A stretch of DNA of 63,843 nt, counting the filler, from Collodictyon triciliatum (Eukaryota), in NCBI GenBank assembly GCA_043381765.1. It is 14 parts of 14 records of this genome, joined end to end, with 100 filler letters (N's around TTAATTAATTAA, not from the genome) between each part and the next. Parts side by side here need not be neighbours in the genome. Positions count along the whole stretch, not along the records: positions 4,344 to 8,574 come from JBHJMP010006350.1; positions 8,675 to 12,905 come from JBHJMP010006351.1; positions 13,006 to 17,239 come from JBHJMP010006352.1; positions 17,340 to 21,569 come from JBHJMP010006353.1; positions 21,670 to 25,899 come from JBHJMP010006354.1; positions 26,000 to 30,228 come from JBHJMP010006355.1; positions 30,329 to 34,554 come from JBHJMP010006356.1; positions 34,655 to 38,881 come from JBHJMP010006357.1; 6 more parts are not named here. One strand, written 5' to 3'. The notes below the pieces were generated by a model. That model was given only the letters and a program-made list of their open reading frames with translations, had not been told where the DNA came from and searched no databases. Below, one piece after another: positions 4,431 to 59,573 of the stretch. The position numbers and the translations under genes were made by a program. How positions within the stretch are numbered: position 1 is the stretch's first letter; each line of letters starts with the position of its first letter.

Positions 4431-4480
4431 GCCCGATCACTTTGAATCGAATAAAGATAAAATAAAATATATAGCCCGAT
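4431..4480 (+). mobile_element. 36-bp micro-copy of non-LTR element 3' end with 7-bp TSD
   Basis: GCCCGAT (4431-4437), then CACTTTGAATCGAATAAAGATAAAATAAAATATATA, then GCCCGAT (4474-4480). Confidence 0.8.
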
Positions 4481-4540
4481 AAAAGAAGCCTGCCCATAAA
4501 ATCCCAGCCACTTTCATAGCGCCAAGCCAAGACAGCCGGG

Positions 4541-7500
4541 ATGGATCCGCTGCCCCCAGAAATCTTCCTTCGGGCAGGACTCACAGAGGAGGTGCGACGG
4601 GACATGGCGACCGTCCAGCAGGCGATGCAGCAGCGCCGCACCGAACAGCAGCAGCGCCACCGCACCGAGCTGCAGCGGATTCTGGACCGGCCGCTCTCGT
4701 CCATGGTGCAGACGAGGCCAGCCGCACCGCCGCCCACCGCACCGCGGCCCGCACAAAAGCCTCTGCCGCGCTCGCAGTCCGCACCCCGGCTGGCCTCGTC
4801 GCCGCTGGCAGGCACAAAAGGCCCGGCCCCGACCGCCCCGCGCCTGCCCCACGGTCCCGCGCCTGCCGCCCGCAGGAACGGCCCGGCACACGGCCCCGAC
4901 CACGCCGACCACGCCGACCACGCCGAGCTGTCTGGCCTGCGTGTGACCGGACACACCCGCGAGATAATCCCGCATCCGAATCCGCAGCCGCTGGTCCCCC
5001 GTGCGGGCCACGCCTTTGCAACCAAGGATGACGCGCAGGACTTGCATGTCCGCTTTGTGCATCCGGGCCCGATTCTCCCGGTCGATGCCATCGAAGCGTC
5101 GGCTCCACTTGTGCACAGGCGCATCCGCTTTGATACCGAGGGTAGTCCACAGCCAGGGAGCGATAATGTCTCCGAAAACCATCCCCGTCCGGATCCGTCA
5201 CCTGGAATGGAGAGCGTGTATCTTTCATCATTTTCTTCTTCTTCATCTTTCCTTATCGCACTTTATTCTGCCCCTTTGTCTCGTGACATGCGGGCTCTGC
5301 TCCATAAGCACTTCTCTTGCTACATTCACCCATGCACCCATGCACCCATGCACCCATGCACCCATGCACCCATGCACCCATCCATCCATCCATCCATCCA
5401 TCCATCCATCCATGAAAGCAAATGAGAAAAATCCCCTATTCATCCTTCTAATTTACGTGTTTCCTTCAGGGGGTCATTTACTTCATTCAAGCTCCACTCG
5501 GTAGCCCCAGACGGGATTGCGTCACTGAGGTCAAGTTCACCTCTGCTTGTCTCCGAGAGCACATTGCATCCACAAAAGACAACCACATCCTCACATAGTC
5601 CTATAGCCAATAAGACAGATAAAAATGCAAAGCATTCTATTAGCACTGCGCCAGCTCAATCGGTGACTACTCAAAGGCCACCATCAACACAAGAATCATC
5701 TATATTTCGTTCAAAGTCACATTCTCCAACATCAAAATATTCTGATCAAGTAGCACATAGCCAGGGAAACAAAGACAGGGTAAAGACGAATCTATCTAGA
5801 GTTCCGTCCAAGGATTTTCCTAAAGATATTCCAAAGGCACCTAAATCTGCATATTCGAAACCACATTCCGCCAGTTTATCAAAAAGCCAAGACATCCACC
5901 AGGAAATAAAGAAAATGGAGAGTTCTACAAACAGAGTTGTTTACCTTGAGACGGAGTTGAAGAGTAGCCACATTGAGAATGCCAAACCAACCCAAAAGAA
6001 ACTCAGAAAAGTAATTTTATACAATACAAAAGGATAAAGGAAACATCATCCCGATTTCATCGCCTCTTCACCTTAAATTCATATCAATAAGCAAATTACA
6101 GCATCCCGCTCTCCTATATAGAAATTGTATGTAGTGTATGTAATGAAATTGATATACTATTTTACCTAATTGCATGCGCAACTAGACTCAAAAACATAAA
6201 GTAGAGCTCCCCACGGAGATACTGGACGAAATAATGGTTTTTTCTTTTGTAAATGAATCTATAGATCATTAATCATATTTCAAAGATAATATGAATCATA
6301 CCAAAGAACTTTGAATCGAATAAAGGAAAAAAAATGAAATACCAAAGAAAAAAAAGAAGTAAAAGTAAAATAAAAACCAAATTCATCGACAATACGAAAA
6401 CAGGATATACCTGAGGAAATTATTCTGAGCCCAGCTATGAAGAGATCAATGAAAATCGATGATTTATGCGGCAAAACAAAATGTAAAACTATTACATCCC
6501 AAATATCGGTCCTTCAGATTCAAGCGACAGCTTAACATATCATCCTTTCTTCGATTTATTTTTAATTTTTGATCATAGTCTCAAGGGACGAAATAATATT
6601 GGTCATTAATCATTTCGAGCAGCAACTCGGGAAGCTAAACGTAAACCTTACAAACAAAAATGAATTTCCTGGAGAGGTATATAGACATATATCCATCTGC
6701 ATATATTTTTTTATAGAAAGGAGAAAAAAAACAAAGGAAAAATGAAGTTTACTTTTTTTTTATTTATTATTTAAAAAAAAAATAGGGTATTTGGATTAGC
6801 GATGAATCAAATACCATACGATTTGGGCATCTTAATCACAATGTCGACACATTCTTTCCCTTAATTTTTTAATTTAATCCATGATTTACTAATACATACA
6901 CTGATAGGAATCTGAATTACTATTGGATAGGGAAAAACTCATGGATATGATGACAAAATTCTTTGGGATAAATGATCAATACTTCCTAAAATCCTTATAT
7001 CACCTCGCCTTGAGATGGGTATTTTCATCAACCAAAAAGAGATGCTTATCCATATACAGCACAATTACATGCTCAGCTGGACTATCAATAACAACATACC
7101 CATTCTCCGCTTCTCGTTCTTCATGCTATCTTTATTGTATTTCCATCCATCTAACACTTCCCAGCTCTCAAAAAATGAAAGCAAAGCTTTATAAAAATAG
7201 TTACTAAAAACACTGAATGCTGGCTAAATAAAAAAAAAAAAAACATTTAATAGGACTATGTCCATAGCATGGCCAACAACCCACACTTGAGCTCTCATAA
7301 TGTTATCCACGAAAATATTGCGTCGAATGTTGGTCGCAGATCCTCAATTCCTTATGTTGTCTATCAAACACCAGCTACTTCGATGTTAGATGCCACAATC
7401 AAGGATGAAAAAGACATAGGCGTCGATTTATTTTGCCGAATTATGGTTCATTTTCCTTTCTTTTGTGCCCCTTTCAATTTTTTTTTCAAATTATTACCTC

Positions 7501-8398
7501 TCTTATGTCTTTTATGGTCTGTATTTGCATCCTTTTTCAATCCCCTATCGCTGAAAAAATATCTTGGTTGTAATATTTCGTGAAATAACAGAATTCAGTG
7601 GTCCATGGATCGAATTTGGAGAGAAACGAATTTTCATTTGAGTTAATGGACACGAGTTTGAAGGGATTCTTAACAAACGATGATATTTGCCGAATGATGA
7701 TGTGCTTTTTAAGGTATGAAATAATTTTCAAATCAACTATGTATAAAGTATTAGAAAATAATAGAATAATATAGCTATATAGCTTATTTTGTGCCAAACA
7801 ATCAACCATACCCCTAAATAACATCATCTCCATTCAAGCGCAGTAATTTTTTCCAATATATTCTATAATGAAAATCAGGGAGGCAGAATTAAGAGATATG
7901 ATGCCCATCATTGAAAAATATTTTCCTTTCGGAGACAGAGTTGATAAAGCATCTTATCAAAGAATCTGCGCAAGGTACTCTCAAATTACAGGGAAGATAG
8001 TTGACTGTATTAGTCAACCCTTTCAATTGTACATCGAGGAAGTAGATGGTCTTGACTCTGAGGAAGTGACGGAGGCACATGTCGTTTCATTGGATGATGA
8101 TTTCAGTGACGTGCATTATGAAATACATAGAGAACTATTGGTCAAAAAGAAGGATAATCAAGTGAAGGCACTAGTATGTATTACTCTCATACACTTTTGA
8201 ATATTTCAAATATCCTTTTCCCAGGTTGAAACTTCAGTACATATTTTTCTTTTTCTTGCAACACTGTAAAGATAGGAGAGTTTCGATTCGGGGAGACATC
8301 TACAAACGATTTTGGGATCTTTCATCTGCAAAACCCAGATCTATTCCACTCTGAAAGGTTCAGAAAAGCATGCGTTCTTGACGGCGTTCGTCATCGAG
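4541..8398 (+). CDS. Multi-exon protein with Pro/Ser-rich N-terminus and degenerate NCS/calcineurin-B-like EF-hand region, 3' truncated
   Basis: GC-rich first exon from ATG 4541. Exon near 7592-7713 reads [39 protein letters not shown] (EF-hand-like). Further exons run to a donor after 8398. Confidence 0.55.
6298..6349 (+). mobile_element. 30-bp micro-copy of non-LTR element 3' end with 11-bp TSD (intronic)
   Basis: ATACCAAAGAA (6298-6308), then CTTTGAATCGAATAAAGGAAAAAAAATGAA, then ATACCAAAGAA (6339-6349). Confidence 0.88.
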
Positions 8399-9053
8399 GT
8401 ATGAAACATTTTGCAAACCACTTGGCTATGCCACTCCAATTACGAAAATTTATGCTTTCTCCTTTTTCCCTTTTTCCCTTTTTCCCTTTTTCCCTTTTTC
8501 CCTTTTTCCCTTTTTCCCTTTTTCCCTTTTTCCCTTTTTCCCTTTTTCCCTTTTTCCCTTTTTCCCTTTTTCCCNNNNNNNNNNNNNNNNNNNNNNNNNN
8601 NNNNNNNNNNNNNNNNNNTTAATTAATTAANNNNNNNNNNNNNNNNNNNNNNNNNNNNNNNNNNNNNNNNNNNNTCTATGTTCTATGTTCTATGTTCTAT
8701 GTTCTATGTTCTATGTTCTATGTTCTATGTTCTATGTTCTATGTTCTATGTTCTATGTTCTATGTTCTATGTTCTATGTTCTATGTTCTTTGTTTTTTGT
8801 TCTTTGTTTTTTGTTCTTTGTTTTTTGTTCTTTGTTTTTTGTTCTTTGTTTTTTGTTTTTTGTTCTATGTGATTTGTGATTTGTGATTTGTGATTTGTGA
8901 TTTGTGACTATCTTATTTTTTTTCTTGTTCATGAGGCAATATGTTTAATTATTCGACTGGTATAGCTATACCGTTCCCCTCTGACCCACGAGAAGAAACT
9001 CGATAATCCCACTCATTGCTAGAACTTACACTTTTATATTTGCACACGGTTAG

Positions 9054-10565
9054 ATCGAGTACAAGGGCGATGTAGATTTGGTTACCGAAACTGACAAGTA
9101 TCCATTTTCTCTCGTTTTTTACTTTATTTTTTGTGAAGTTTTACTATCCTAAAAACGAATGAGTGTATTTACAAGTGAACTAAGTACGATAATGTGTTCC
9201 CCTTGGAAAATATACTTTCGTCCCCAAGAAATTCAAGGAGCTCACAGTTTCTTGTTGGAGAAGAGTTATAATTAGGCGATAGGGTTCACCCTTGACTACC
9301 TTTGATATTTTCTCTCTCTAAGATATGCCATTTAGAACCGAATAAAGCGGGGGAAACTCATAAATATGTAAAACGCTCCTATTTTAGGAAGTGCGAGGAT
9401 GCTATTCACGAAATTATCTTTTCAAAGTATCCAACCCATTCGTAAGTTTCATAAGCATCACTCGTATTTTCTCTTACATATTTGATGGCAGCTTTCCTTG
9501 TCTTGATATTCTCTTACTGATATATACTTATGTTTTAGTGTAAATTTTCATGTCTCTTTCCTGCTTTCATATAACATAATTTTTCATATTTCCGCTCATC
9601 GATTGCAAAGTTGCTCCCTATTGAATAGTAAATATTGAGAATAAGTACTAAATAATTGGCAGTTTTATTGGCGAGGAAACGACACCTCTAGAATCCCACG
9701 TAAATGGGCTTTTGACTGATGCGGCAACCTGGATTGTTGACCCTGTGTGTTGTTCTTTCTTGTTTGCTTGTTTTGTTTGTTTTGTTTGTTTTGTTTTGTT
9801 TTGTTTTGTTTTGTTTTGTTTTGTTTTGTTTTGTTTTGTTTTGTTTTGTTTTGTTTTGTTTTGTTTTGTTTTTCCTTTATTCGATTCAAAGGAAGGAAGG
9901 GGGTTTAGATTATTCAAGAGTTTAAGTTCAATATTTTCCCATTTTTTGATATTCGTCTTAATTACTTCTCGTCACCATAGGTTGATGGGACTACAAATTT
10001 CAGTCATTCTTATCCTTTTGTTGCTGTTTCGATTGCATTGGCCATAAATAAGGAGGTGAACATTCTTCTTTTTTTTATAAAATAAGTGCAACTTTTATAT
10101 CTCCTTTATCATCCTTTTGACACTTGCGCACGTCCTACAAAAGACATGCATTCCTTAAGAGAAAAAATGTGTCAATTATCGGGTTTATCATACACCTGAC
10201 CTGGTCACTAAGTATAAATATTAATTGGTTAGATAGTTATTGGTGTCGTGTACAACCCAATCATGGAGGAATTGTTCACTGCAATCAAGGGACGCGGTGC
10301 ATTTTTGAATGGGAAGCAGATATTCTCTAGCAAAACCTCGGAGCCCATCAAATCACTCGCCGCAACAGGCTTTCCCTATGACCGTAAAACCCGAATGCCT
10401 TTGGTTATGAGTCATTTGGAGGCTGTGCTGTTGAATGCCCAGTATGACTCAGTTTTAATCGCATATCTATTCCATTCGTCAAATACCTCTCGTTCTCTCT
10501 TATTTAAATCGATAATTTTCATCTTCTCTTTACTCATGGTGAAGCAACGCCTAAACTACCATTAC

Positions 10566-10662
<97 letters not shown>

Positions 10663-10917
10663 ATTCCCCATTAAAGATGTGTTCGACGCAGTGGCAGTGC
10701 AGCGCTAGACATGTGCTCGGTTGCTTGTGGGAGAGTTGATTTTTACTACGAATTCGGCCCCAAAGTTTGGGACATTGCGGCGGGTTTGTTGTGTGTGTAT
10801 GAAGCTGGTGCTACTGCAAAGGACACCAGTGGCGCGCCGATCGATATTTTCAGCCAAAGAATCATCGCAGGGAACGATGTGTTGATTGATAAGATTATCC
10901 AATTGTTCCCAAAGTGA
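9054..10917 (+). CDS. IMPA: Inositol monophosphatase (IMPA/SuhB family), 5' truncated
   Basis: Six exons give [51 protein letters not shown] and WDIAAG. Stop TGA at 10917. Confidence 0.95.
9770..9900 (-). mobile_element. Micro-copy of non-LTR 3' end whose tail is an (AAAAC)n microsatellite (IMPase intron)
   Basis: Minus strand reads TTCCTTTGAATCGAATAAAGGAAAAAC followed by (AAAAC)n. No TSD visible. Confidence 0.7.
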
Positions 10918-12661: not shown

Positions 12662-12711
12662 AATGTGAAGGAAAATTTTTTCCTTTATTCGATTCAAAGG
12701 GAACAATGTGA
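12662..12711 (-). mobile_element. 36-bp micro-copy of non-LTR 3' end with 7-bp TSD
   Basis: AATGTGA at 12662-12668 and 12705-12711 flank minus-strand GTTCCCTTTGAATCGAATAAAGGAAAAAATTTTCCT. Confidence 0.75.
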
Positions 12712-13329
12712 TAAGTAAAAGTAAGTCTCATAAAAGTCTCCAAAGTCATCAGAGAAGTTTCTTTAAGTAATTTTTTATTTGTTATGTTTTCGTTTTTTCT
12801 TTTCTTTCTTTTTTCTTTTTCTTTTTTCTTTTTCTTTTTTCTTTTTCTTTTTTCTTTTTCTTTTTTCTTTTTCTTTTTTCTTTTTCTTTTTTCTTTTTCT
12901 TTTTTNNNNNNNNNNNNNNNNNNNNNNNNNNNNNNNNNNNNNNNNNNNNTTAATTAATTAANNNNNNNNNNNNNNNNNNNNNNNNNNNNNNNNNNNNNNN
13001 NNNNNCTTTTTTCTTTTCTTTTTTCTTTTCTTATTTCTTTTCTTATTTCTTTTCTTATTTCTTTTCTTTTTTCTTTTCTTTTTTCTTTTCTTTTTTCTTT
13101 TCTTATTTCTTTTTTCTTTTCTTTTTCCTTTTCTTTTTCCTTTTTTTATTTTCTTTCCATTCTTTCTATTCTTTCTATTCTTTCTATTCTTTCTATTCTT
13201 TCTATTCTTTCTATTCTTTCTATTCTTTTTTCATTTTAAAATTTTATTTTTGCAAATTACCACATCCTGAATGGATTGACTATGTCCGAATGATGAAATC
13301 TTAACACCTGCTTTCCAACTTTCTTTCAG

Positions 13330-21569: not shown

Positions 21570-21988
21570 NNNNNNNNNNNNNNNNNNNNNNNNNNNNNNN
21601 NNNNNNNNNNNNNTTAATTAATTAANNNNNNNNNNNNNNNNNNNNNNNNNNNNNNNNNNNNNNNNNNNNAAAGAAAAAAGAAAAAGAAAAAGAAAAAAGA
21701 AAAATAGAAAAATAGAAAAAAAAGAAAAGAAAAAAGAAAGAAGAAAAAAAGAAAGAAGAAAAAAGAAAGAAGAAAAAAAGAAAGAAGAAAAAAAGAAAGA
21801 AGAAAAAAAGAAAGAAGAAAAAAAGAAAGAAGAAAAAAAGAAAAAAGAAAAAAAGAAAGAAGAAAAAAAGAAAAAAGAAAATCTATAGTGCTCGCGTTGC
21901 AATTCCTGGTGGTAGTATTGTTAACTAGCGAGCCCATACAAAATTAAGTCCTTTGTATTATGGTATTATTTCACCAAACAGGCAAGAT

Positions 21989-23552
21989 ATGGGTTTGATC
22001 TACAGATATATTCGCTTGGAGAGGCTCTTTTTTGGTGGAATGCGGGTTTCTAAACGCTCTGTTTCTACGGGCAACGTTATCCTTACCAGTGTTGAGCTTA
22101 ACTACCTTAAAACAGCATCACCCGAGCCTACGTCAAAACCACCTCTGTTTATTTTGCACGGGCTTTTTGGTCACTCTGGAAATTGGTTGGGCTTCTCATT
22201 TTATTTTACCAGATAGCCTCTTTATTTCCTGCCATTGTCATTTCTTCGGGAAACATAATTTTAGTATCCATGTTGCCTTCTCGGTATATTTCGGGGAAGT
22301 ATTATTGCTCCTTCTGAAGGACTTTTCACTCACTCACTCACTCACTCACTCACTCACTCACTCACTCACTCACTCACTCACTCACTCACTCACTCACTCA
22401 CTCACTCACTCACTCACTCACTCACTCACTCACATACCATCAATCCCATCCAATCAGTACAAATACACCAAATCCAGTTTCATCCTTCTGGCTTTGATTA
22501 TATGGGAAATTACAAAGATAATATAATTCAATAAAAAAAAAAAACCCCACCCCCAGGCGGTCGCTCTCCCAAAAGCTCGCGATGACTAATCGCGATGTCT
22601 ATGCCATCGACATTCGAAACCATGGCTCCAGTCCACATGCAGATGATATGGACTATGCAACCCTTGCGCGTGACATTGTGAGGTTACAAAGTAGACTTCA
22701 GATACCTGTTTTTGACTTAATCGGCCATAGCATGGGTGAGAAAATATGAACTTCTTACTTGGACATTCATACATCTCTTTGTTGGATTCAATTTTCCTTG
22801 AAAATTTTGAGCTGTTAGTTGACGGAAGCCTTTAAAGATCAACACTCATCTTTCTAGGTGGGAAAGTTGCGATGATGACGGCACTGTTATATCCTGATTC
22901 TGTTGAGCGAGCCGTGATCATGGACATTTCTCCAGTATCATACTCTACAAAAGAACTTCTAGAAACCTGGTCGACTGTTAACTATGTTATCGACGTCATG
23001 TCAAAGTTTCCATTGGATAAGATTAATAATCGTAAAGACGCAGATGAAAAGATGGAGTCCGTCGTCCCAGTAATAATGATGTACTTTTGGAATGCAGCTT
23101 TGTACAAGAAATAAATGAATAAATCCTTACTCACAAAATAAATCAATTAATGACTAAATTATATTTTTCTTTAATTTTTACATACAAAACCATAGGGCTA
23201 TGTTTTGAGACAGTTCATTCTTCAAAATCTTGTAAATGATGACCTTGGTAATGGACAAAAGAAGTGGAAGTGGAGAGTTAACTTGGATGCTATCCGGAAA
23301 AATAGACACGATATTGCTGACTTCACCATTCCCACTACCTACCGCATTTTTGAGAAGCCAACGTTATTTATTCGTGGCACAAAATCTGATTTCATTCTAG
23401 AGTCACACAAACAAATAATAGCAAAGTTCTTCCCAAGGTCTCACATACTTGATATTGAAGGAGCAGGACATTGGATCCATATGGAACAACCGGATACTTT
23501 TTTGAGTATCACAACTCATTTTCTTGATAACGATTCCCATTTTGAACTCTGA
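21989..23552 (+). CDS. ABHD11: ABHD11/YbfF-like alpha/beta hydrolase, paralogue 1
   Basis: Exons 21989-22185, 22557-22735, 22858-23069, 23196-23552. Motifs LHGLFG..NW, DIRNHGSSPH, GHSMGGKVAM, DISP, AGHWIH.E.P. Arg-rich presequence-like N-terminus. Confidence 0.93.
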
Positions 23553-24087
23553 CATCAATTTAACTGAGGAAGAGAAACCCTTTGATACCATCGAGAGCAA
23601 CACTATTGATCTTTTCACTCATAAAATGACATCGTGATGGCATATCCATGATTTTGATGTATAAGTTAGTCAAAATAACCAAACATAATATAAAAAAATT
23701 TAACTTTAAGCAATATAGAGTTTCTTTGCAGCACGTATACAAATGACCTTTTAATTACTTTCCCTACTTTTTTTAGACAGACAAGAGTCATTCCTCTGAC
23801 CATGTCCTTCCTTCCTTCTTTTTTCCTTTCTCCTCTCTTTTTTCATTTCTAATAATACTAATTATAAACAACGAAAAATGAGAAATGAATAATGAATGAG
23901 AAATGAATAATGAATGAGAAATGAGAAATGAGAAATGAGAAATGAGAAATGAGAAATGAGAAATGGAAAATGAGAAATGAATAATGAATAATGAATGAGT
24001 TATGAGTAATGAGTAATGAGTAATGAGTTATGAGATAACAAAAATTAATTGCCATTTGCTCCTACTACGACTTATTTCAGAGGTAAA

Positions 24088-30200: not shown

Positions 30201-30770
30201 AAAAAGAAAAAAAGAAAAAAAGAAAAAANNNNNNNNNNNNNNNNNNNNNNNNNNNNNNNNNNNNNNNNNNNNTTAATTAATTAANNNNNNNNNNNNNNNN
30301 NNNNNNNNNNNNNNNNNNNNNNNNNNNNAAAGAAAAGAAAAGAAAAGAAAAGAAAAGAAAAGAAAAGAAAAGAAAAGAAAAGAAAAGAAAAGAAAAGAAA
30401 AGAAAAGAAAAGAAAAGAAAAGAAAAACCAAAACTGAATCGGTAATCGCATGAAGCTTCCCCTTTTCCCTTTTCCCTTTTCCCTTTTCCCTTTTCCCTTT
30501 TCCCTTTTCCCTTTTCCCTTTTCCCTTTTCCCTTTATCCTTTTCCCTTTTCCCTTTTCCCTTTTCCCTTTATCCTTTTCCCTTTTCCCTTTTCCCTTTTC
30601 CCCTATCTTATTCCTTTTTCACTCCGTTTCTTTCCCTCAAAGAAGTCTTCATACATATATCAAATCCTGCCATTTCCCCACCTGTGTTCCTCTATAGATT
30701 TCAAATATCAAGCACACTGTTGTTCCATTTCTAAAACAGGCTCCTTTGCAGTTCGGTCGCTCATTGCAAA

Positions 30771-34554: not shown

Positions 34555-37500
34555 NNNNNNNNNNNNNNNNNNNNNNNNNNNNNNNNNNNNNNNNNNNNTT
34601 AATTAATTAANNNNNNNNNNNNNNNNNNNNNNNNNNNNNNNNNNNNNNNNNNNNCGCCGACCCTCAAACACTGGGCCCACTCCCCCAACACCCACGCAGC
34701 CCACCCAGACGGCGATCCTTTCCACCGCAACCAACGCCATCTCGCTCACACACTGGCACACTCGCTCGCCGCAACATTCTCCCCAACAAAACACATTCTC
34801 TATATACTGTCCGCTTATAGATAAAACTGCACCACAACAAAAAAATTATTTTATCCATCTTGGGAATATGGAGCATTCGTCCTGTTCGGTCTATTTCCGT
34901 GAATAGCGGCATCGTAGCGCTCCTGCTATCTTCACACCATGGCAATCAAAACACACACAGATGCATCACGTTGCCCAGTCGATGCAGAGTCAGCTCGCAG
35001 ATACATATCCTTCCAGCTTGTCTCATGGAACTAGTAAATTGGCATGCTATAGTGAATGTGCTTTTCTTCCCGTTTGATAGCGGTGACTTGCAAAAAAGAA
35101 AAAACGTCAATGATAAACTAACTGTTAAAATGGTTTCCCCTATATTCAATTCAAAATGCATCTTGCTGTTGTAATGCTAATGTCCTCGCTTGGATTGTGA
35201 TTTCTTTTGCAATATGTCTTTATTTCATATGGATTATAGAGCATTTAGTTTATGGTTTGCATCAAATAATCTAACTGCATCGCACGATGAATTTTAAAAA
35301 AAATACAAAGATATAATCCATATCGAAATATATATAAATGTTTTATTAAATCGTACATTTCGCACATATCGATTTATTTATGTTTCACATGCCTAATCGC
35401 TACATCTTATCATAAAACCTCATTGATGATATCACTATTGCGACGATATCGAGTCTTGGAAGTATTGTTTTCTATTACAAAGTCCTCAAGAATACAACTC
35501 AATTGCATAATGATAGAAATTCTACCTCCAATATTAATACAAATAGATAGTCTGCACAAAATTGAAAGGAAGAAAAAATACAAATAGATAATAGAATACA
35601 CCATTCATATCAGCCGTAAAGAAAAGAATACGACATGAAAATAAAGAATCACTGGCGACAAATCATATTAACGATGAATGATAGAATCACACTATCTTCG
35701 CATCGCGACTATTTTCTCAATATCAATACCGCTTGACAGATTGTAACATGATGAATATTTCTAAATATAGAATGATGTTATCCATGCCATTCAGAATCGA
35801 TTCATACAAAGCCTTACTTAAAGCTTCAAGTGACCATCAATAAGTGTTTTTATTCTATCATACTATATTACAGGGTATATGTAACATCCATCAGATAAGG
35901 CTTCCAAATAACTATTAACTATTACACAATATTAGAGATGAAAAATTAAATGAGAAATCGATATCATATAACTATGTACAGCGCATCGTTTCATAAGGTA
36001 CACAGTAATGACACTGTAAGATATTCGGTACATATGAGCTTATCCAAGAATTATGTCGGCGTCAATTTGAGCTGTTGTTCGAAGCTTCTTTATGAGCAAT
36101 TTGTTTATTTGTTGGTAGGGTCATTAATATAAAGTAAATGTGAGTGGACCACATGTTTACTTATAAAACAGTTTAATATATATCAAATGTGAATGGAATA
36201 ATCGATGGTTCAAATTTTATCAGATGTGAATCATATGGTATAGAATTCAACATTAGATTCCATTAATATACAATCATGTCTTTGAATGTTGAAAAATGAT
36301 TTTTACAAGACAAGTAGCAAATGGACGATTACACTTTTAACGCATAATTGAATTTTCGGGTTTTATATGGTTTAAAATACAATCAAAAGAAAATGTTTCG
36401 TATGATTTGTCATTTGAATGCTTTAAATCAAAGGTATGAGAAATGAAAAAAAACGCTCTTATTATAAAAGTGAAAATTATAAGAAAAAGAGTTAAAATGA
36501 CTAATGAAATAATTAATATTAAATGAAACGTTCTGGATTAATAATATTTTAGTTACTCAAAATCTAATAAAAATGTGCATTAAATAAAAAGCAAGCGATT
36601 CACAAAAATAAAAATAAACCCGAGAGTACTTGAATAATGTCTCGAAATCTTCATCGACATATTTCAATGGCTTCGGTTTTGTATGAGTTTTGTACCAATT
36701 AAAAAAATCTTATTTTTTGAAATACAAATAAATGATATGTATATATTATAAAGTGATATTTAATGTAATTATATCTCTTGATTATAAATTGCATGCTTCA
36801 CTTCAATTAAAATATTACCAAATTAATCTTTTGTGCTGTCATTCTGTATGTGTGGAGTGATATTTGCTTGTTGGAGGCGTCAAAGGCGATGGATAGCATT
36901 TCAGGTGTATTTCAATTGAATTGATGAAAAAAAAGCCGAATTAAAGAAGCCAATATATTTTTATCGATTCATGATACATTTAAAGTTTCATCAAAAATCA
37001 AATTTATGATTTAAGAATCGAAGTATTAATGAAGTGAGATTAACTTGAGTAAGACGTTAATTTTAATAATCGAGTAAATACATCAACTAATAACAAAAAA
37101 ATTATATAATTATTCGTTTCTCAAGTCTAAATTTATATAATCAATAAATTCTATAGTGTTCAGCTTTTTTTCTCTCCTACTTAAGGTAAGAATCGATTTT
37201 ATTATAAATTCAGATATTATTTTAAATAGGTCGGTTCATAAACGAGTGCTATGTATTTTTATCAATCCTTGAAATAATAAACCAAAGTGAATATATTATG
37301 ATAATTAATTACAAAATAAATTTTTTATTAAATTTCAAACATAAGAAAATATAACAAAACAGATTAATAGAAAAAAGTTAAAGTTCACCTTTTTAGCATA
37401 ATGCAATATTAATTAATAGCTTAACATTGCCTTCCCAAATTTATTATATTTTATTATAGATATAATATCGATTACAGAGAATAAATAAATGCAATATAAT

Positions 37501-38099
37501 GATCTAAATGAAAATAAACTTGTTTTACATTTACATTATAATTTTTAATTAATATTAACAAAAATGTTATTCCTAGTCTTCAACTACAAGTTGATATTTT
37601 GAATTTGTTTTATGCGATTAGTTTGCCTTTATGTTTATCAAAATCCTAGTAATTTATTTTTCAAATTGATAATTAAGATAATAATTAATCTTATTTTTAT
37701 ACAGTTTCAAATAATAAATTTTGTCAAAACGCTTATATTATTAATTCAATAAAATTTAAAAAAGACTTTATTAGATTGCATTTAATAACGAAATTTTATA
37801 ATCAACATATTTTGAATTCTATATGTAATTTTATTTATATCCAGTAAGGAATTGTTTTTATGTCATCGGATTCTTTTTTTATCATTCCTTTTAATTTTGT
37901 GCAGGATGGTGAAGATGTTGGCTTTGGGATATATGTCATCGAATTCGTAATTAAAATTACAATCTCCGTTTTTCAAATTTTCCTTTCCTTAAATAGTTCC
38001 GTTCAGTTTTTAATTATATTCCACATTACGCATATATATGTACTTTACGTATATTTTGATAAAAGTGTAAAATTATTTTTTTAATTCTATTTCATATCA

Positions 38100-38881
38100 T
38101 TTTTTATTTGATTTTGATTTTGATTTTATTTTTGATTTTGATTTTGATTTTGATTTTGATTTTGATTTTGATTTTGATTTTGATTCTGATTTTGATTTTG
38201 ATTTTGATTTTGATTTTGATTTTGATTTTGATTTTGATTTTTGTTTTGATTTTGATTTTGATTTTGATTTTGATTTTGATTTTGATTTTGATTTTGATTT
38301 TGATTTTGACTTTGATTTTGATTTTGATTTTGATTTTGATTTTGATTTTGATTTTGACTTTGACTTTGATTTTGATTTTGATTGTCATTTTAATTGTCAT
38401 TTTAATTGTCATTTTAATTGTCATTTTAATTGTCATTTTAATTGTCATTTTAATTGTCATCTTCATTTTTTCCTTTTTTTCGATTCAAAGTGAAGCGAGG
38501 TTATGCCATACAAAGGGGCGGGATGGGAGCGCATGGGAGAGAGCAAACGCGAGAGGGAACACAATACCGTGGAGAGGGTAGAACCGGAAAGAAATCAGTG
38601 ATAGTGAGTTGGTCAGGTGGGCTTCCTAAATGGTTGATTGGTTGCGTGTGTAGCGAGGGTTGGATATGCTGTGGGTGATATCGCACGACACATTCCCACA
38701 TCTCTCTTCGCTTGTGGTCAGAGTAGCGAAGAATGCGAGCGTGTTTCAGCAGACTGTTCAGGAAGCTGTATTGCACGAGGCTCTCAAGCCTGGATACATT
38801 GATTTCTCGTTCGGGTGAATCATTGGAGCGAGAGAATGCGCGCACACTCCATAAGGCCCACAGCATATGTCCCCTTGTGAC
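38100..38881 (-). mobile_element. 3' end of a non-LTR retrotransposon (ORF C-terminus, 3' hairpin, microsatellite tail), cut by contig end
   Basis: Intronless minus-strand frame open from the contig edge to 38501: HMLWALWSVR (like the W..W..R motif late in L1/Tx1 ORF2)...DQLTITDFFPV...*. Then CACTTTGAATCGAAAAAAAGGAAAAAATGAAG, (ATGACAATTAAA)n and (ATCAAA)n. Homologous to the TSD-flanked insertion at 57937-58144. Confidence 0.75.
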
Positions 38882-43018: not shown

Positions 43019-43307
43019 GTGGGTGCTGTATGAAAATAAGGATATCTTGTTTCCTTTTTATTTTCTTTCCTTCCTTTTCTCTTGTTTTGGTATTTTTTGT
43101 TATGTTTTGTTATGTTTTGTTATGTTTTGTTATGTTTTGTTATGTTTTGTTATGTTTTGTTATGTTTTGTTATGTTTTGTTATGTTTTGTTATGTTTTGT
43201 TATGTTTNNNNNNNNNNNNNNNNNNNNNNNNNNNNNNNNNNNNNNNNNNNNTTAATTAATTAANNNNNNNNNNNNNNNNNNNNNNNNNNNNNNNNNNNNN
43301 NNNNNNN

Positions 43308-53211: not shown

Positions 53212-53287
<76 letters not shown>

Positions 53288-55350
53288 CCCCCCCCCCCCC
53301 CCCAACTCTCATTTACTAAGGTCCTTTGTACTTCAAATATAGGAAACGCCCGGCGCATATGAGAATCTCAAGCGACACTTCCGGCCATCGCAGCCGATTT
53401 CTTCCTTTGTCAACTATTTGAAGGAATTGAAAGGGCTGACACACGAAAAGCTTCTCACAACGGTTGAAGAAGAGAAATCAAGACAGGATCATCTATCAGA
53501 CATAATGCTTAAGGAGAAAAGAGTATTTATATTATTAGAACAAAGGATATATGTATATGTCGCTTGATATTCTAAAATTTTCCCCCATGTAAATGCTTTC
53601 ATTATGACCTCACTATATGAATCAGATTCATCACATGAATACCTGATACAATAGGCATCTAGTGAAAAGAAGTCGCTCGAGAAAGAGCTTTTTGAAGAAC
53701 GAAGTGCCAGAGAAAAGGAAGTATCTGCCAGACAGAGGCAAATAGAGAATCTGCAAAGTATGCATATACTATCTTGTGATAACCATCCTCTTTATTTATA
53801 TGTTGAAAATCTGCTGGTTGTGTAGAAGGAAACTTATCCGTGAGACTTTACGTCATAATTGAACGAGACAAATTAATATGAAAACTCACATCAATACTTT
53901 TGAATCCAGGGGAAATATCGAGCATAAAGCAAAAGAACAAAGATGAGGCTGCAAATTTAGAGAAAGAAAGTAAAGCACGCGAAACGTCGGATGAAAAGTC
54001 ATTTCAAGAGAAGGAAGCAACACTACGGCAAGAAATCAAAAAGATGGAGCTGCTTCTTGAAGAGAAAGTGGCCAAACACAAAGAAAACGAGTTGCAGATG
54101 AGAAAGAAGGCGCATAAGAGCGAGCAGGAAGTGGAGACATGGATATCAAAGTACGACCAAGAGATGACAGAGAAAGAGACTGATATTCAGTCAGCACAGG
54201 TGATAGCACATTCTTTAATGTGATTATATTAAGTCCTTTACTCACTAACATATATAACTAAGTGTCACGATCAGCATATTTTATATATTTAATATTTTCA
54301 GTTGATTGTTAAATCATGAACGTCTTACATTTGGGGCTTGACATAATATATTGGTCAATTTTCTATGAACGTTAATTCTAATGCTATCTTATTCTTTCTT
54401 TCTTCCTTTTTTATAATGTTTTACAGGAAGCCTACGACAAAGAAAAAAAAGAGCTGGAGGAAATGGAAAAGAAGTATACCGAGGTCAATTCGGATTGGGA
54501 ACTTCTAACGGCTGAAAAACAAAAGATAGAACAAGCAAAAGAGGTAAGAGATTCATATAATTTATTTTTTTTTCAAGAAAATTTCAATACTTCTATACTG
54601 TCTTGTTGCTTCATCTATTGATTTTTTTCTGGCAATCGATCTCCTCCAGCATCAGTATCATATTGTTTTCATTTGGTGTAGTATTATTTCATTTTTCTCT
54701 AATATGATAGATTTAATAGTGATATTACATGTGCTTATTTTCTCCGATTTCTGCACATTTTATTTGACGACATATGTATGACATTTCTAAATGAATATTG
54801 ATTGAATATGGGTCATATCGCGATGCAGAGAGAGAAGGCACGTTTGTTGGAGCTGAACAAAGCCGCCACTGTCATCCAAGCAGCATGGAAAGGATATCGT
54901 GAGCGCATGAAGTTTGCAAAAAAGAAGCTAACAAAGAAGCCCACAAAAACATCAAAAGTAATTGAACCACTTTTTTTTTGTCTTTATTTCATTTCGTTCA
55001 ATTATTTTTATATTTTATTGTGAGGAGATATTCGTTTGGTGTGGTTGAAAAATTCGAAGGCTCTTGAAATACATTTTCAAGCTTGCGACACAAAAAATTT
55101 TTCAGAACATATATATTTTTACTTTTGCTTTTTGTATCTGAACGAGTCGTTTGCACACACATAATCCGTGTTTGTGGGAATGCAGTCAAAGTCACCAAAG
55201 AGTCGGTCTGCTGGAAGGGCCGGCCAGTCTGGTGGGAGCATGGGCGTGTCGAAGCCAGGAACCGCATCGTCTAAACCAACATCGCCTGGGACGGTTGGCA
55301 AAGGCCCCACAAGGCCAACCACAAAATCGTCAACCCGAGAAAACAAGTGA
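52315..55350 (+). CDS. DRC10: Dynein regulatory complex subunit 10 (IQ domain-containing protein D)
   Basis: MNKLTNVEAQRIMAVMNETIEKL, KLLTTVEEEKSRQDHL, SEQEVETWISKYDQEMTEK, IQ motif AATVIQAAWKGYRER, Lys-rich tail. Confidence 0.88.
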
Positions 55351-56487: not shown

Positions 56488-56496
56488 ATATTGAAT

Positions 56497-56590: not shown

Positions 56591-57039
56591 ATCAGAGACA
56601 TTGCAAAGACATTATTCAACAAACTCGCGAACTTTTTTAGCTTGAGATATCGACAATCTTTTCACTCTTTTGGCAGAACTTGTTTTGCGTCTTTTTTTTA
56701 CGCACCGGCTTTCTGATACCATGTAAAGTAATATTGACAAATATGAATAATAGACATCAAATAGACCCACATTCATCTATATATGAAATCCACAATAGGG
56801 AATGCACCTTGGTCATTCCCCGATTCACCTCTATAAATGCATTTTACCTTTCCTTCTTGTCATTTTTATTATTGCACTCTCATCGCACCAGAATCCGCCT
56901 GCAGCAAGGACGCAACACAACAGAAAAACCAAAACAAAAAAACAAAAAAACAAGAAACAAAAAATGGAATGAAAAACCGTAGAAATTGTTGTAATACAAA
57001 ATCCACGCTAAAAACTCGACACAACAGAGAAGGCAGCGG

Positions 57040-57834
57040 ATGGCGCAGTTTATCAAACTCCAAAGCTCTGACATTACACCAGGTCCTCTTGTATTCGGCA
57101 CAGAAGATTACCGTATTATCCAAGCTCGAGATAAAAGAACAGGACAGACGGTCGCTGTCAAAGAATATCAAAAATCACAGCTCCACAAACCTGAATATGT
57201 CGAGCCCATCATGGAAGAAGTCGGTAAGCTTGTCGCTTTGCCTCGACACAGCGGGGTTTTATCCTACCTTGGTGCTTATGTCGAAGAGGGCACTTTAAAT
57301 ATCGTCCGCGAGTTTGGTGAAGGACGTACCCTCGAGGAAATCATTCCCACGCATAACTTCGACCTTGAAAAGATCAAAGAATTAGTTGAAATGATCTGCG
57401 ACGGCGTTTCATTTTTACACTCTCATGGATTGTTTCATTACAACATCAAGCCCGACAATATAATACTGAAGGCTGATGGAAGTGTCGCTCTTTGTGATTT
57501 TGGGATGCTCGAGCTCCGTGATAGTATTCAACGTAGAGGCACATCTAGAAGACTAGACATTGCGGTAGCTCCGCCAGAATTGTTCCGCGATGGCTCTTAT
57601 GTGGGAGAGAAGAGCGATGTTTTCTCAGTCGGGCTTATTTTATGGATGTTTCTCTTCAAAAAGATTCCCAAAGTCCGCTACTTTGACACGAGAAAAATTA
57701 CCGATCCAAAAATGAAAGAGCTGCTGACCAAGACATTTAACCAAACACCTGAGGAGCGCCCGACACTGGACGAGTTTCGTCGCAGTATATTAACTGATTG
57801 CGTATGTGGCTTTTCTTCACAAGTGATCTCCTAA
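57040..57834 (+). CDS. Protein-kinase-fold pseudokinase (HRD replaced by HYN, no Gly-rich loop)
   Basis: VAVK and DFG are intact, but the catalytic loop is LFHYNIKPDN and GxGxxG is absent. Possible phase-1 donor at 57785. Confidence 0.85.
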   Translation: MAQFIKLQSSDITPGPLVFGTEDYRIIQARDKRTGQTVAVKEYQKSQLHKPEYVEPIMEEVGKLVALPRHSGVLSYLGAYVEEGTLNIVREFGEGRTLEEIIPTHNFDLEKIKELVEMICDGVSFLHSHGLFHYNIKPDNIILKADGSVALCDFGMLELRDSIQRRGTSRRLDIAVAPPELFRDGSYVGEKSDVFSVGLILWMFLFKKIPKVRYFDTRKITDPKMKELLTKTFNQTPEERPTLDEFRRSILTDCVCGFSSQVIS

Positions 57835-57919
57835 TGCATATCTGATACTCATGAGATTTATTCAGAATTAAGTATTCGACCGGAAACGTACCTTTCTACC
57901 TATTAATGTACTATACAAT

Positions 57920-58161
57920 ACAAAGACCGACAAAGCTTTTGGGCCGCCCACCTGACCAACTCGCTATCACTGATTTCTTTCCAGTGCTGGCCTCTCCACG
58001 GTAGTGTCTTCTCTTACCCGCGTTTGCTCTCTACTATGCACACCTACCTCGCTCTTTTATGGCATTAACTCACAGCGCTGAATCGAATAAAGGGAAAAAA
58101 CAAACAAAAGAACAAACAAAAGAACAAACAAAAAACAAACATAAACAAAGATCGACAAAGC
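57920..58161 (+). mobile_element. ~208-bp 5'-truncated non-LTR retrotransposon copy with 17-bp TSD
   Basis: ACAAAGACCGACAAAGC (57920-57936) and ACAAAGATCGACAAAGC (58145-58161) flank it. 57946-58003 matches the reverse complement of 38565-38622 at 53/58 by hand alignment. Ends CTGAATCGAATAAAGGGAAAAAA plus a CAAA-rich tail. Confidence 0.9.
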
Positions 58162-58202
58162 CGAATTAGTGCGAAATGCGAAAGGAGCTGGTTAACCTGT
58201 AG

Positions 58203-59392
58203 AAGCTCGCAAAGCTGAAGAAGTCCGCAAAGCTAGAGCAGCAAGTAAGTGAGAACATTGTCCTCTTCCTTTGCAGTCACTGATACTCCTATAAGGCGGC
58301 CTCTGACATCAAACCAAATCAGCCCCTAGCCGCCTGACCCTGGGCAAGTATGCAGACCTGCTAACCACGGACTTTGAGAGGAGGGAAAACTTCCTGGGCA
58401 AGGGCGGCTTCGGGATGGCGTACAAGGTGCAGCTAAAGGAGGGCGTCTTTGCTATCAAGAAGATCCCTGATGCTATGGTCTCATCATCCCCAAACGGTGC
58501 AGACCCCGAGACCGAGGGCAAGTTGATGCTCGAACTACAGCACCCAAACATCCTGAGACTCTATGACTTTGGGTACCACAACAAGGACCTGCTCTTTGTC
58601 ATGGAGTTTGCGGACGGTAGAGACCTGCACACACTCATCGAAAGGTGCAAAGCGCTAGGAAACGATCTGACCCTCAAATACGGGCTGCACATCATCCATG
58701 GACTTGCCTATCTCCACTCTCGCGTGCCGGCCATCCAGCACCGCGACCTGAAGACAGAGAATGTCCTCCTTGTGGACGGCGTCGCCAAGCTGACTGACTT
58801 CGGGCTTGCAAAGAGTGGTGTCTCTGTCAACTCGGTGAGCAAGTTCGGTGGCTCGATGAAATGGTCCCCACCCGAGGTTTTTGACGGGGGCAAGGGTGTG
58901 GGCCTGCCTAGCGATGTCTACTCGTATGGCCTTGTCCTCTGGTCCATGCTAAGCGGCAAGTATCCGTACGAGGGAATGATTGACAGTCAGGTCAGTTTGA
59001 GGGTCCTTCGTGGGGAAAGGCTTCCTCTCCCTGCTACCTGTCCTTCTAACCTCGCAGCTCTTATCCACAAGTGCTGGGAGGGAGACTATGAAAAAAGAAT
59101 AACCGCGGTTCAAGTCAGGACATATATGGACGAGCTCATGCGCAACCCAAACACCGTGATTGAGAAGACATCAAGGGATTCAGTAAAGGGAATGAGCAAC
59201 GCGCAGCTTGTCAAGTACCTGGAGGATGAGCATGTCATTAAAAAGTTTATTGATATCGTAAAGAGCGCCAATGTGACAGGTGATGACTTCCTTGAGCTTG
59301 ATAAAGACAATTTAAAATCCAGACCATTCAAACTCAACGAATTCGACGCCAAAACGATTATCAAGTTGATTGAAGAAGCCAAGCACAAATAG
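58203..59392 (+). CDS. TKL-group protein kinase with C-terminal SAM domain (5' end unresolved)
   Basis: LGKGGFG, AIK, HRDLKTEN, DFG, GSMKWSPPE, SDVYSYG, CW...R. SAM-like tail MSNAQLVKYL...NVTGDDFLELDKDNLK. Intron 58245-58322 (GTAAGT...CTGAC...CAG) links an upstream exon EARKAEEVRKARAA. Confidence 0.9.
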
Positions 59393-59525
59393 GCAACCTC
59401 TGAATCTTCTGCTATCGGTATTTTCTCTCACCTCTCTCTTTCTGTTGCAGAGAAGCCGACAGACAATAAAACATAAACGATTAAAAACATGCGCTTACGA
59501 CTTCATATGCCTTTTTTTTTATACA

Positions 59526-59573
59526 CACGAAAAGTTTTTTCCCTTTATTCGAATCAAAGGTTATAGGCACGAA
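59526..59573 (-). mobile_element. 36-bp micro-copy of non-LTR 3' end with 6-bp TSD
   Basis: CACGAA at 59526-59531 and 59568-59573 flank minus-strand CCTATAACCTTTGATTCGAATAAAGGGAAAAAACTT. Confidence 0.7.

What the first reader, a model, noticed from the sequence alone, without database searches (positions are those of the whole stretch)
4431..59573. Family of ultra-short (30-36 bp) retro-insertions: 3' hairpin plus A-tail with target-site duplications
Seen: the motif (C)CTTTGAATCGAATAAAGG(A)n occurs at least 7 times on five independent contigs (4438, 6309, 9871, 12680, 38470, 58078, 59540). Five copies have direct repeats of different lengths (7, 11, 7, 17 and 6 bp). Four of these inserts are only 30-36 bp. 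The motif folds as CTTTG-AATCGAA-TAAAG, extended to an 8-bp stem in the 9871 copy. Known: variable-length TSDs with an A-rich 3' tail are the signature of target-primed reverse transcription, and some LINE clades recognise a 3' stem-loop. Inference: reverse transcription stalls repeatedly just past the hairpin, or a tiny hairpin RNA is mobilised in trans. Either would scatter about one copy per 9 kb that repeat annotators would miss.
Basis: partly seen in the sequence, partly recalled or inferred. Interest (0 to 1): 0.85.

Follow-up and report, generated by a model that had tools for sequence, protein, structure and literature searches.

The report
Ultra-short dead copies of a LINE tail
The repeated 18-base motif is the very end of a jumping gene (a LINE retrotransposon), and most of its copies in this unidentified eukaryote are tiny 30-base stubs, a real but extreme form of an ordinary process.

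Summary
The motif is real. There are 7 copies with at most 2 mismatches, against 0.03 expected. They lie on 4 contigs, not 5.

Two copies (38473-, 58076+) continue upstream into the C-terminal coding end of a LINE ORF2. Database relatives of that ORF carry Pfam zf-RVT. The motif is therefore the last 18 nt of a LINE 3' UTR.

Five copies have no LINE sequence upstream. Four of them are 29-36 bp inserts between direct repeats. The 58076 copy is a 208-bp insert between 16/17 repeats.

A database protein (P0007) carries the antisense motif plus A8 as a 14-residue insertion with duplicated flanks, while its near-identical relative P0006 has the empty site.

The hairpin is not supported: folding energy is marginal, there is no covariation, and it is broken in one copy. 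A second, unrelated 3' tail family makes 27-63 bp inserts with 10-16 bp repeats.

Verdict: target-primed retro-insertions, yes; a hairpin-specific mechanism, no. This is extreme 5' truncation of LINEs. No genome-wide check was possible.

The parts
4431..4480 (+). Family 1 short copy. TSD GCCCGAT (4431-4437). 36-bp insert (4438-4473), made of CA + the motif with 1 mismatch + tail TAAAATAAAATATATA. TSD again at 4474-4480.
6298..6349 (+). Family 1 short copy. TSD ATACCAAAGAA (6298-6308). 30-bp insert (6309-6338), made of the exact motif + A8TGAA. TSD again at 6339-6349. It lies 272 nt downstream of the stop of the + strand ORF 5426-6037.
9768..9891 (-). Family 1 short copy. Exact motif (9874-9891) followed by a tail grown into (AAAAC)n (9768-9872). 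No LINE sequence upstream and no TSD found.
12662..12711 (-). Family 1 short copy. TSD TCACATT (12705-12711). 36-bp insert, made of GTTCC + the exact motif (12682-12699) + A6TTTTCCT. TSD again at 12662-12668.
38107..38881 (-). Family 1 long copy, which runs off the contig end at 38881. It holds the 3' end of the LINE ORF2 (open frame 38881 to 38504, matching P0005 at E=1e-19), the 3' UTR, the motif with 2 mismatches (38473-38490), and a tail grown into 12-mer and 6-mer microsatellites (38107-38455).
57920..58161 (+). Family 1 5'-truncated copy. TSD ACAAAGACCGACAAAGC (57920-57936). 208-bp insert (57937-58144), made of the last ~22 ORF2 codons with the stop, the 3' UTR, the motif with 2 mismatches (58076-58093), and an A-rich 12-mer repeat tail. 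TSD with 1 mismatch at 58145-58161. It lies 242 nt downstream of the stop of the kinase gene 56995-57834.
59519..59573 (-). Family 1 short copy. TSD TTCGTGCCTATAA (59561-59573). Insert made of C + the motif with 1 mismatch (59542-59559) + GAAAAAACTT. The second TSD copy is TTCGTGTGTATAA (59519-59531), 11/13. The copy is antisense and lies 150 nt downstream of the stop of the kinase gene 58307-59392.
35536..35590 (+). Family 2 short copy. 14-bp direct repeat AATACAAATAGATA flanking a 27-bp insert, GTCTGCACAAAATTGAAAGGAAGAAAA.
37859..37941 (-). Family 2 short copy. 10-bp direct repeat flanking a 63-bp insert that ends ...CACCATCCTGCACAAAATTAAAAGGAATGATAAAAAAAGAATC.
62369..62452 (+). Family 2 short copy. 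16-bp exact direct repeat (18/19 when extended) flanking a 52-bp insert, ATCCACCATCCTGCACAAAATTTAAAGGAAGAATAAAATAAATAAAAAATTA.

Best explanation
The motif is the last 18 nt of the 3' UTR of an L1-like LINE. Relatives of its ORF2 carry the zf-RVT zinc-binding domain.

All copies are dead-on-arrival products of target-primed reverse transcription. The element's endonuclease nicks the target. Reverse transcription starts on the A-rich tail of the LINE RNA and copies the 3' end. In most events it ends after only about 18-50 nt. The short cDNA is then joined to the other side of a staggered break, which leaves target-site duplications of 6-17 bp.

SHOWN:
- the 3'-terminal identity with a LINE;
- the variable duplications;
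- the A-rich tails, some grown into microsatellites;
- the nested 5' ends;
- one filled/empty pair.

INFERRED:
- that the element's own reverse transcriptase and endonuclease did it (neither domain is in the window);
- the reason for early termination.

I think early termination is a general property of retro-insertion in this genome. Candidate causes are low processivity, early second-strand processing, or a cleaved template. I do not think the hairpin causes it.
For: - The ORF upstream of the 38473 copy has 9 hits at E<=1e-3 in 1.84 billion representatives. In 4 of the 7 scanned, Pfam zf-RVT lies just N-terminal of the aligned part.
- tblastn places the same C-terminus at 38881-38570(-) with E=1e-19, and at 57924-58001(+) with E=3.6e-10.
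- The two long copies share 167 bp at 79% identity, ending at the motif.
- Target-site duplications occur in 5 of the 7 family 1 copies and in 3 of 3 family 2 copies.
- Against a tandem-masked control the duplications are enriched, p=1e-4 to 5e-3.
- Exact direct repeats of 10 bp or more that flank 15-150 bp have the A-rich tail on the expected side in 6 cases and on the mirror side in 0. For 9 bp or more the count is 9 against 3.
- P0007 differs from P0006 by one 14-residue insertion...EREINI-FFSFIQFK-EREINIF.... The antisense translation of the motif plus A8 is FFSFIRFK.
- The five short copies have no LINE similarity upstream, with scores within the shuffle range.
Against: - No reverse transcriptase or endonuclease domain was seen, either in the window or in longer relatives (searches found none). 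The parent element is therefore inferred from its C-terminal end only.
- Without masking tandem repeats, the enrichment of short duplications is not significant, p=0.17-0.23.
- The 9874 copy has no duplication.
- The 5' ends of family 1 pile up within 5 nt of the motif edge. Plain random truncation does not predict that.
- The sample is small: 10 copies in 62 kb. No genome-wide check was possible.
Confidence: 0.8

Rival explanations
1. The template is not whole LINE RNA but a defined short 3' fragment of it: the motif plus the tail, about 18-23 nt of body. The fragment could come from cleavage (for example small-RNA-guided slicing) or from protection by the bound LINE protein. It is then reverse-transcribed to its end (run-off).
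For: - 4 of 6 measurable family 1 copies end 0-5 nt upstream of the motif. A constant termination rate gives p=1e-4.
- No copy truncated inside the motif was found.
- The insert deduced from P0007 also starts at the motif edge.
Against: - The 5' ends are ragged, with 0, 1, 2 and 5 extra nt.
- Family 2 copies have nested 5' ends, with inserts of 27, 52 and 63 bp.
- Copies shorter than about 14 nt of body would be hard to detect at all.
- There are no RNA data.
Confidence: 0.12
2. An independent tiny non-autonomous element (a hairpin RNA with an A tail) is transcribed on its own and mobilised in trans. It shares only its tail with the LINE, as a SINE does with its partner LINE.
For: - Short copies are close to the consensus, with 2 mismatches in 90 nt. 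The two LINE-linked copies have 2 mismatches each in 18 nt.
- LINE/SINE pairs that share a 3' tail are an established pattern (passages of PMC3747384).
Against: - A 26-36 bp insert has no room for a promoter.
- No tRNA was found and no Rfam family matched.
- The hairpin is marginal and shows no covariation.
- The extra 5' nucleotides partly match the LINE 3' UTR (CA in the 4440 copy against ...TTCA in the 38473 copy).
Confidence: 0.05
3. The motif is a host 3'-end signal (it contains AATAAA) that sits at mRNA ends and was not inserted.
For: - The motif contains AATAAA.
- The 6309 and 58076 copies lie in the sense orientation, 272 and 242 nt downstream of ORF stops.
Against: - Only 1 of 6 Pfam-supported gene 3' ends has a sense copy downstream (stops at 10914, 23549, 25694, 34138, 57834 and 59392).
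- The 59542 copy is antisense to the gene it follows, and the 4440 copy lies upstream of an ORF.
- 18-nt identity, flanking duplications and continuity with a LINE ORF are not properties of a poly(A) signal.
- A secondary use of inserted copies as poly(A) sites is not excluded.
Confidence: 0.02
4. The copies belong to a DNA-level element, either a miniature palindromic transposon (CCTTT...AAAGG as short terminal inverted repeats) or a Helitron 3' end.
For: The motif is partly palindromic.
Against: - The duplications vary from 6 to 17 bp instead of having a fixed length.
- There is a one-sided A-rich tail.
- The motif is continuous with a LINE coding end.
- The presence of duplications at all is against a Helitron. 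That Helitrons make none is recalled, not tested.
Confidence: 0.01

Closest known systems
L1-clade LINEs with a C-terminal zinc-binding domain (Pfam zf-RVT, PF13966), and their 5'-truncated dead-on-arrival copies
   Same: - An A-rich 3' tail, variable target-site duplications, and copies that share the 3' end and differ at the 5' end.
- Relatives of the ORF carry zf-RVT.
   Different: - A review states that truncated LINE members usually range from 100 to 1,000 bp (passage of PMC3747384). Here 8 of 10 copies from two families are 27-63 bp inserts.
- The reverse transcriptase and endonuclease domains were not seen, so the clade assignment rests on one domain in relatives.
Stringent-type LINEs, whose conserved 3' stem-loop is needed for reverse transcription, and LINEs with repeat tails (UnaL2 with TGTAA repeats, I element with TAA repeats, plant L1 lineages with a conserved 3' hairpin)
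   Same: A conserved 3'-terminal sequence directly before the tail, and tails that are microsatellites rather than pure poly(A) (passages of PMC3747384).
   Different: The hairpins described for those elements are supported by compensatory changes (passage of PMC3747384). Here the stem is 5-6 weak pairs, shows no covariation, and is broken in one copy.
Avian CR1 elements (recalled, not looked up): heavily 5'-truncated copies with a 3' hairpin and an 8-bp microsatellite tail
   Same: Strong 5' truncation, and a 3' end made of a short motif plus a microsatellite.
   Different: As recalled, CR1 copies are mostly hundreds of bp long, and CR1 belongs to another clade. Nothing here was compared with CR1 sequences.
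Very short L1-mediated insertions in human disease genes and cell-culture assays (recalled, not looked up)
   Same: Inserts of tens of bp with target-site duplications and an A tail.
   Different: As recalled, these are rare exceptions in humans. Here they are the majority class in two families.
SINEs that share their 3' tail with a partner LINE
   Same: The tail is shared with a LINE.
   Different: There is no promoter-bearing head. There is no tRNA, 5S or 7SL part. The copies are far shorter than any SINE.

Membership tests
Non-LTR retrotransposon (LINE) insertions made by target-primed reverse transcription | Target-site duplications of variable length flanking each insertion | tested here: met
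   - 5 of 7 family 1 copies have them (7, 11, 7, 6-13 and 17 bp), and 3 of 3 family 2 copies do (14, 10 and 16 bp).
- They are enriched over a tandem-masked control but not over an unmasked A-rich control.
Non-LTR retrotransposon (LINE) insertions made by target-primed reverse transcription | A-rich or simple-repeat 3' tail on one side only, in a fixed orientation relative to the body | tested here: met
   - All 7 family 1 copies and all 3 family 2 copies have it.
- The mirror control gives 6 against 0 for repeats of 10 bp or more.
Non-LTR retrotransposon (LINE) insertions made by target-primed reverse transcription | Copies share the 3' end and differ by 5' truncation | tested here: met
   - Family 1 bodies are 18, 19, 20, 23, 157 and at least 409 nt.
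- Family 2 inserts are 27, 52 and 63 bp.
Non-LTR retrotransposon (LINE) insertions made by target-primed reverse transcription | Parent element encodes a reverse transcriptase | tested here: inconclusive
   - Only the ORF2 C-terminal end is present.
- Relatives carry zf-RVT, 'zinc-binding in reverse transcriptase'.
- No RT domain was found in window ORFs, and searches for longer relatives found none.
L1 clade | APE-type endonuclease, L1-type RT and C-terminal zinc-binding domain in ORF2 | not testable with these tools
   - Only the zinc-binding domain was seen, and only in relatives.
- No full-length element is available.
- phmmer against solved structures gave only unrelated hits at E>0.2.
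Stringent-type LINE 3' stem-loop | Stable hairpin kept by compensatory changes | tested here: not met
   - MFE is -0.3 to -6.2 kcal/mol, and 14 to 130 of 200 shuffles fold as well.
- 71.4% of cells are paired, against a shuffled mean of 71.6%.
- One pair has a change on both sides, which is no more than in shuffles.
SINE | Internal pol III promoter head (tRNA, 5S or 7SL derived) | tested here: not met
   - ARAGORN found 0 genes and Rfam gave 0 matches.
- The short inserts hold nothing 5' of the motif except 0-5 nt.
Host polyadenylation signal | Sense orientation just downstream of host genes in general | tested here: not met
   - 1 of 6 Pfam-supported gene ends has a sense copy downstream.
- One has an antisense copy.
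MITE | Terminal inverted repeats and a target-site duplication of fixed length | tested here: not met
   The duplications are 6-17 bp long and the tail is on one side only.

The most novel reading that the evidence does not exclude
In this genome most retro-insertion events use, or end on, a small-RNA-sized 3' tag of LINE RNA: 18-50 nt plus the tail. The tag could be produced by slicing of the LINE transcript or by the footprint of the bound LINE protein.

These stubs would land about once per 4-9 kb and go unseen by repeat annotators. Their A-rich tails would seed the microsatellites that fragment the assembly. Sense copies would hand AATAAA signals to neighbouring genes.
Probability: 0.15. 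Interest if true: 0.7.

Novelty: new variant of a known kind. Interest (0 to 1): 0.42.

Why it matters
- If the window is representative, this genome holds very many LINE-derived stubs that are too short for standard repeat annotation. Repeat content and insertion rates would then be underestimated.
- Three of the seven tails have grown into 47-349 bp microsatellites. This ties retro-insertion to the simple repeats that end almost every contig here.
- The sharp pile-up of 5' ends offers a natural system for asking why LINE reverse transcription stops early.
- For the scan itself, the finding is a correct reading of the retrotransposition signature, but the proposed cause (the hairpin) is not supported.

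Tried and rejected
SEARCHES THAT FOUND NOTHING USEFUL
- Pfam on 162 window ORFs found no transposon domain.
- Pfam on the 126-residue ORF found nothing, even at E<=10.
- Word-index searches for longer relatives of the ORF and of P0005 found none.
- A kinase search, meant to place the organism, gave at best 40% identity to transcriptome-assembly proteins. The organism stays unidentified.
- The protein atlas gave only zf-RVT look-alikes for P0005.
- phmmer of P0005 against solved structures gave only two phosphodiesterase chains at E>0.2.
- An exact scan of bacterial and archaeal genomes for the motif plus AAAA gave 2 hits. Both lie inside bacterial coding sequence (reading ...[12 protein letters not shown]...) and are unrelated.
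- A literature search for a 13-nt piece of the motif gave 0 papers.
- Searches for reports of extremely short LINE insertions gave 0, 0 and no relevant papers (listings only). I therefore found no description in print, but these are narrow keyword searches.
- A search on one candidate organism gave nothing usable (listing only).

WEAK CANDIDATES LEFT OUT
- Possible extra motif copies at 35139(-) with 3 mismatches, 9331(+) with 4, and 31243(-) have no tail or no duplication.
- No duplication was found for the 9874 copy.

NOT SIGNIFICANT
- Clustering of the copies on a few contigs, p=0.07.

STAYED UNCHECKED
No genome-wide census was possible, and no DNA could be had for P0004-P0012.

Full report
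WHAT THE WINDOW IS

The window is not one locus. It is 16 short contigs, mostly about 4.2 kb, joined by N44-TTAATTAATTAA-N44 linkers. The DNA is eukaryotic. It holds protein kinase, SH2, inositol monophosphatase and alpha/beta-hydrolase exons. It has no tRNA and no Rfam match.

GC content is about 30-43% per contig. Tandem repeats cover about 11% of the bases: 14.3% is masked, of which 3.1% is N. Nearly every contig ends in a microsatellite. The best outside relative of a kinase is only 40% identical, from a transcriptome assembly. I could not name the organism.

THE OBSERVATION

The motif CTTTGAATCGAATAAAGG occurs 7 times with at most 2 mismatches, against 0.03 expected. The copies are at 4440+, 6309+, 9874-, 12682-, 38473-, 58076+ and 59542-. 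They lie on four contigs, not five. This clustering is not significant (p=0.07). Each copy is followed by an A-rich tail. Three tails are now microsatellites:
- (AAAAC)n at 9768-9872;
- 12-mer and 6-mer repeats at 38107-38455;
- a 12-mer repeat at 58095-58141.

- 4440: 7 bp flanking a 36-bp insert.
- 6309: 11 bp flanking a 30-bp insert.
- 12682: 7 bp flanking a 36-bp insert.
- 59542: 6 bp exact, or 11/13, flanking a 29-36 bp insert.
- 58076: 16/17 flanking a 208-bp insert.

ARE THE REPEATS MORE THAN CHANCE?

This genome is full of simple repeats, so the choice of control matters.
- Against all positions, or against positions followed by an A-rich stretch, without masking tandem repeats, adjacent repeats of 7 bp or more are common. 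They occur at 7-24% of positions, and the enrichment is weak or absent (p=0.01-0.23).
- With tandem repeats masked for real and control sites alike, 3 of 5 testable copies have such a repeat against a background of 2.3-8.3% (p=1e-4 to 5e-3).
- The 16/17 pair is one of only two such pairs at a spacing of 40-400 in the whole masked window.
- An orientation control supports real insertion. Among exact, non-simple direct repeats of 10 bp or more flanking 15-150 bp, 6 have the A-rich tail on the side that retro-insertion predicts and 0 on the mirror side. For 9 bp or more the count is 9 against 3, and for 8 bp or more it is 12 against 8.

WHAT THE MOTIF BELONGS TO

Self-comparison shows that 38466-38630(-) and 57938-58100(+) share 167 bp at 79% identity, ending at the motif. 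Upstream of the 38473 copy, one frame is open from the contig end (38881) to 13 nt before the motif.

That 126-residue peptide has no Pfam match. An exhaustive phmmer search of 1.84 billion representatives found 9 proteins at E<=1e-3, five of them at E<=1e-10. In 4 of the 7 that I scanned (P0005, P0006, P0009, P0012), Pfam zf-RVT lies just N-terminal of the part that aligns with the window. Pfam describes zf-RVT as 'zinc-binding in reverse transcriptase'.

tblastn places this C-terminus at 38881-38570(-) with E=1e-19, and at 57924-58001(+) with E=3.6e-10. In the 58076 copy the frame stops after ...FFPVLASPR, as P0004 does after ...FFPVLPSPR. That leaves a 3' UTR of about 90 nt, whose last 18 nt are the motif.

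So the motif is the 3' terminus of a LINE. The 58076 copy is a 208-bp 5'-truncated insertion. The 38473 copy is a longer one that is cut by the contig end.

THE SHORT COPIES

For the other five copies, the 120 nt upstream show no similarity to the LINE 3' region beyond shuffled controls. What precedes the motif inside the duplications is 0, 1, 2 or 5 nt. The CA of the 4440 copy matches the ...TTCA of the 38473 copy. No copy truncated inside the motif was found when I searched for its last 8-14 nt, although very short bodies would be hard to see.

With bodies of 18, 19, 20, 23, 157 and at least 409 nt, a single constant termination rate is rejected (p=1e-4). That test is post hoc, has n=6, and leaves out the 9874 copy because its 5' end is undefined.

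AN INDEPENDENT CASE OUTSIDE THE WINDOW

P0006 and P0007 are nearly identical over the ORF2 C-terminal region: 84 identities over 106 alignment columns, with a single 14-residue gap. P0007 reads ...SPEREINI-FFSFIQFK-EREINIF-RLES..., where P0006 and the window copy read ...SPEREINVS(M/R)LES....

The antisense translation of the motif plus A8 is FFSFIRFK. The one difference, R to Q, is what a CGA-to-CAA change would give. The repeated EREINI marks a duplication of about 16 nt.

This is deduced from protein only, because the DNA could not be fetched. It is nonetheless a filled site next to two empty ones, and it is again an insert of about 26 nt that starts at the motif edge.

THE HAIRPIN

The pairing CTTTG/TAAAG exists on paper. 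Folding gives -0.3 to -3.6 kcal/mol for six copies and -6.2 for the 9874 copy, whose flank happens to extend the stem. Between 14 and 130 of 200 shuffles fold as well. The whole 3' UTRs fold no better than shuffles, with z=+2.0 and -0.5.

On the alignment of the seven copies, 71.4% of cells pair, against 71.6% in column shuffles. Every departure but one breaks a pair. The hairpin is not supported as a functional structure.

A SECOND FAMILY

The other repeat found by self-comparison turned out to be of the same kind with a different tail. The sequence CTGCACAAAATTNAAAGGAA followed by A-rich sequence occurs 3 times, against 0.09 expected. The inserts are 27, 52 and 63 bp, between exact direct repeats of 14, 16 and 10 bp. 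The two longer copies share further upstream sequence (...CACCATC...).

These nested 5' ends are what truncation of a longer template gives. Very short retro-insertions are therefore a property of this genome, or of its LINEs in general, and not of one hairpin. Both tails end in AAAGGAA, which may or may not mean that the families are related.

MECHANISM AND RIVALS

The best reading is target-primed reverse transcription of LINE RNA that mostly ends after 18-50 nt (confidence 0.8).
- Shown: the LINE identity of the 3' end, the duplications, the tails, the nested ends, and one filled/empty pair.
- Inferred: that the element's own enzymes did it, and why synthesis ends early.
- The pile-up at the motif edge in family 1 keeps alive a cleaved or protected 3' fragment as the template (0.12).
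- A self-transcribed tiny element is unlikely, because there is no room for a promoter (0.05).
- A plain host poly(A) signal is rejected. Only 1 of 6 Pfam-supported gene ends has a sense copy downstream, one copy is antisense to the gene it follows, and one lies upstream of an ORF. Secondary use of sense copies (6309, 58076) as poly(A) sites remains possible.
- A DNA transposon is rejected by the variable duplications and the one-sided tail.

COMPARISON WITH KNOWN ELEMENTS

In kind this is an L1-like LINE with ordinary hallmarks. A review that I read in passages says truncated LINE members usually range from 100 to 1,000 bp. It also describes 'stringent' LINEs with conserved, covarying 3' hairpins, and repeat tails explained by template slippage (PMC3747384).

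The present case differs in degree. 8 of 10 copies are 27-63 bp. It also lacks support for a hairpin. My keyword searches found no report of such a size class (listings only), which is weak evidence of absence. From memory, avian CR1 and rare very short human L1 insertions are the nearest parallels.

LIMITS

There are ten copies in 62 kb. No reverse transcriptase was seen. There was no genome-wide census and no RNA data.

The density of one family 1 copy per 8.8 kb should not be extrapolated without knowing how the window was chosen.

Noticed in passing
35536-35590(+), 37859-37941(-), 62369-62452(+): A second family of ultra-short retro-insertion-like copies. They share the tail CTGCACAAAATTNAAAGGAA(A)n, with inserts of 27, 63 and 52 bp and direct repeats of 14, 10 and 16 bp.
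   Followed up: yes
3232-3334, 37400-37497, 40615-40674, 23557-23705: Single-copy candidates with the same signature: a 9-11 bp exact direct repeat flanking a 42-131 bp insert that ends in an A-rich stretch. No family was identified for them.
   Followed up: partly
contig ends throughout, e.g. 4149-4243, 8456-8574, 12771-12905, 43083-43207, 63668-63843: Almost every contig begins or ends inside a microsatellite, most of them A-rich or T-rich. About 11% of the window is tandem repeat. The assembly appears to break at simple repeats.
   Followed up: partly
8908-8921(-), 30603-30618(-), 60648-60662(-): Three microsatellites are directly preceded by a similar short sequence, (A)nGGAATAAGATAG or a near variant. 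This may be another retroelement 3' end.
   Followed up: partly
4520-6037(+): Two long ORFs lie in the same frame, separated by a single TGA at 5423-5425 next to a CATGCACC/CCAT repeat. The protein is proline-rich and low-complexity and has no Pfam match. It may be an intron, a pseudogene or a chance open frame.
   Followed up: no
56995-57834(+) and 58307-59392(+); 21929-23549(+) and 24375-25694(+): There are two tandem pairs of paralogous genes: two protein kinases and two alpha/beta-hydrolases. The 208-bp LINE fragment sits between the two kinases.
   Followed up: no
L001 234-255(-), L002 2447-2468(+): The 22-mer (motif plus AAAA) occurs exactly in two Bacteroidota MAGs. There it lies inside coding sequence reading ...[12 protein letters not shown]..., a coincidence unrelated to the element.
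   Followed up: yes
53213-53300: A run of about 17 C (G on the minus strand) directly abuts a 70-base poly(T) tract.
   Followed up: no
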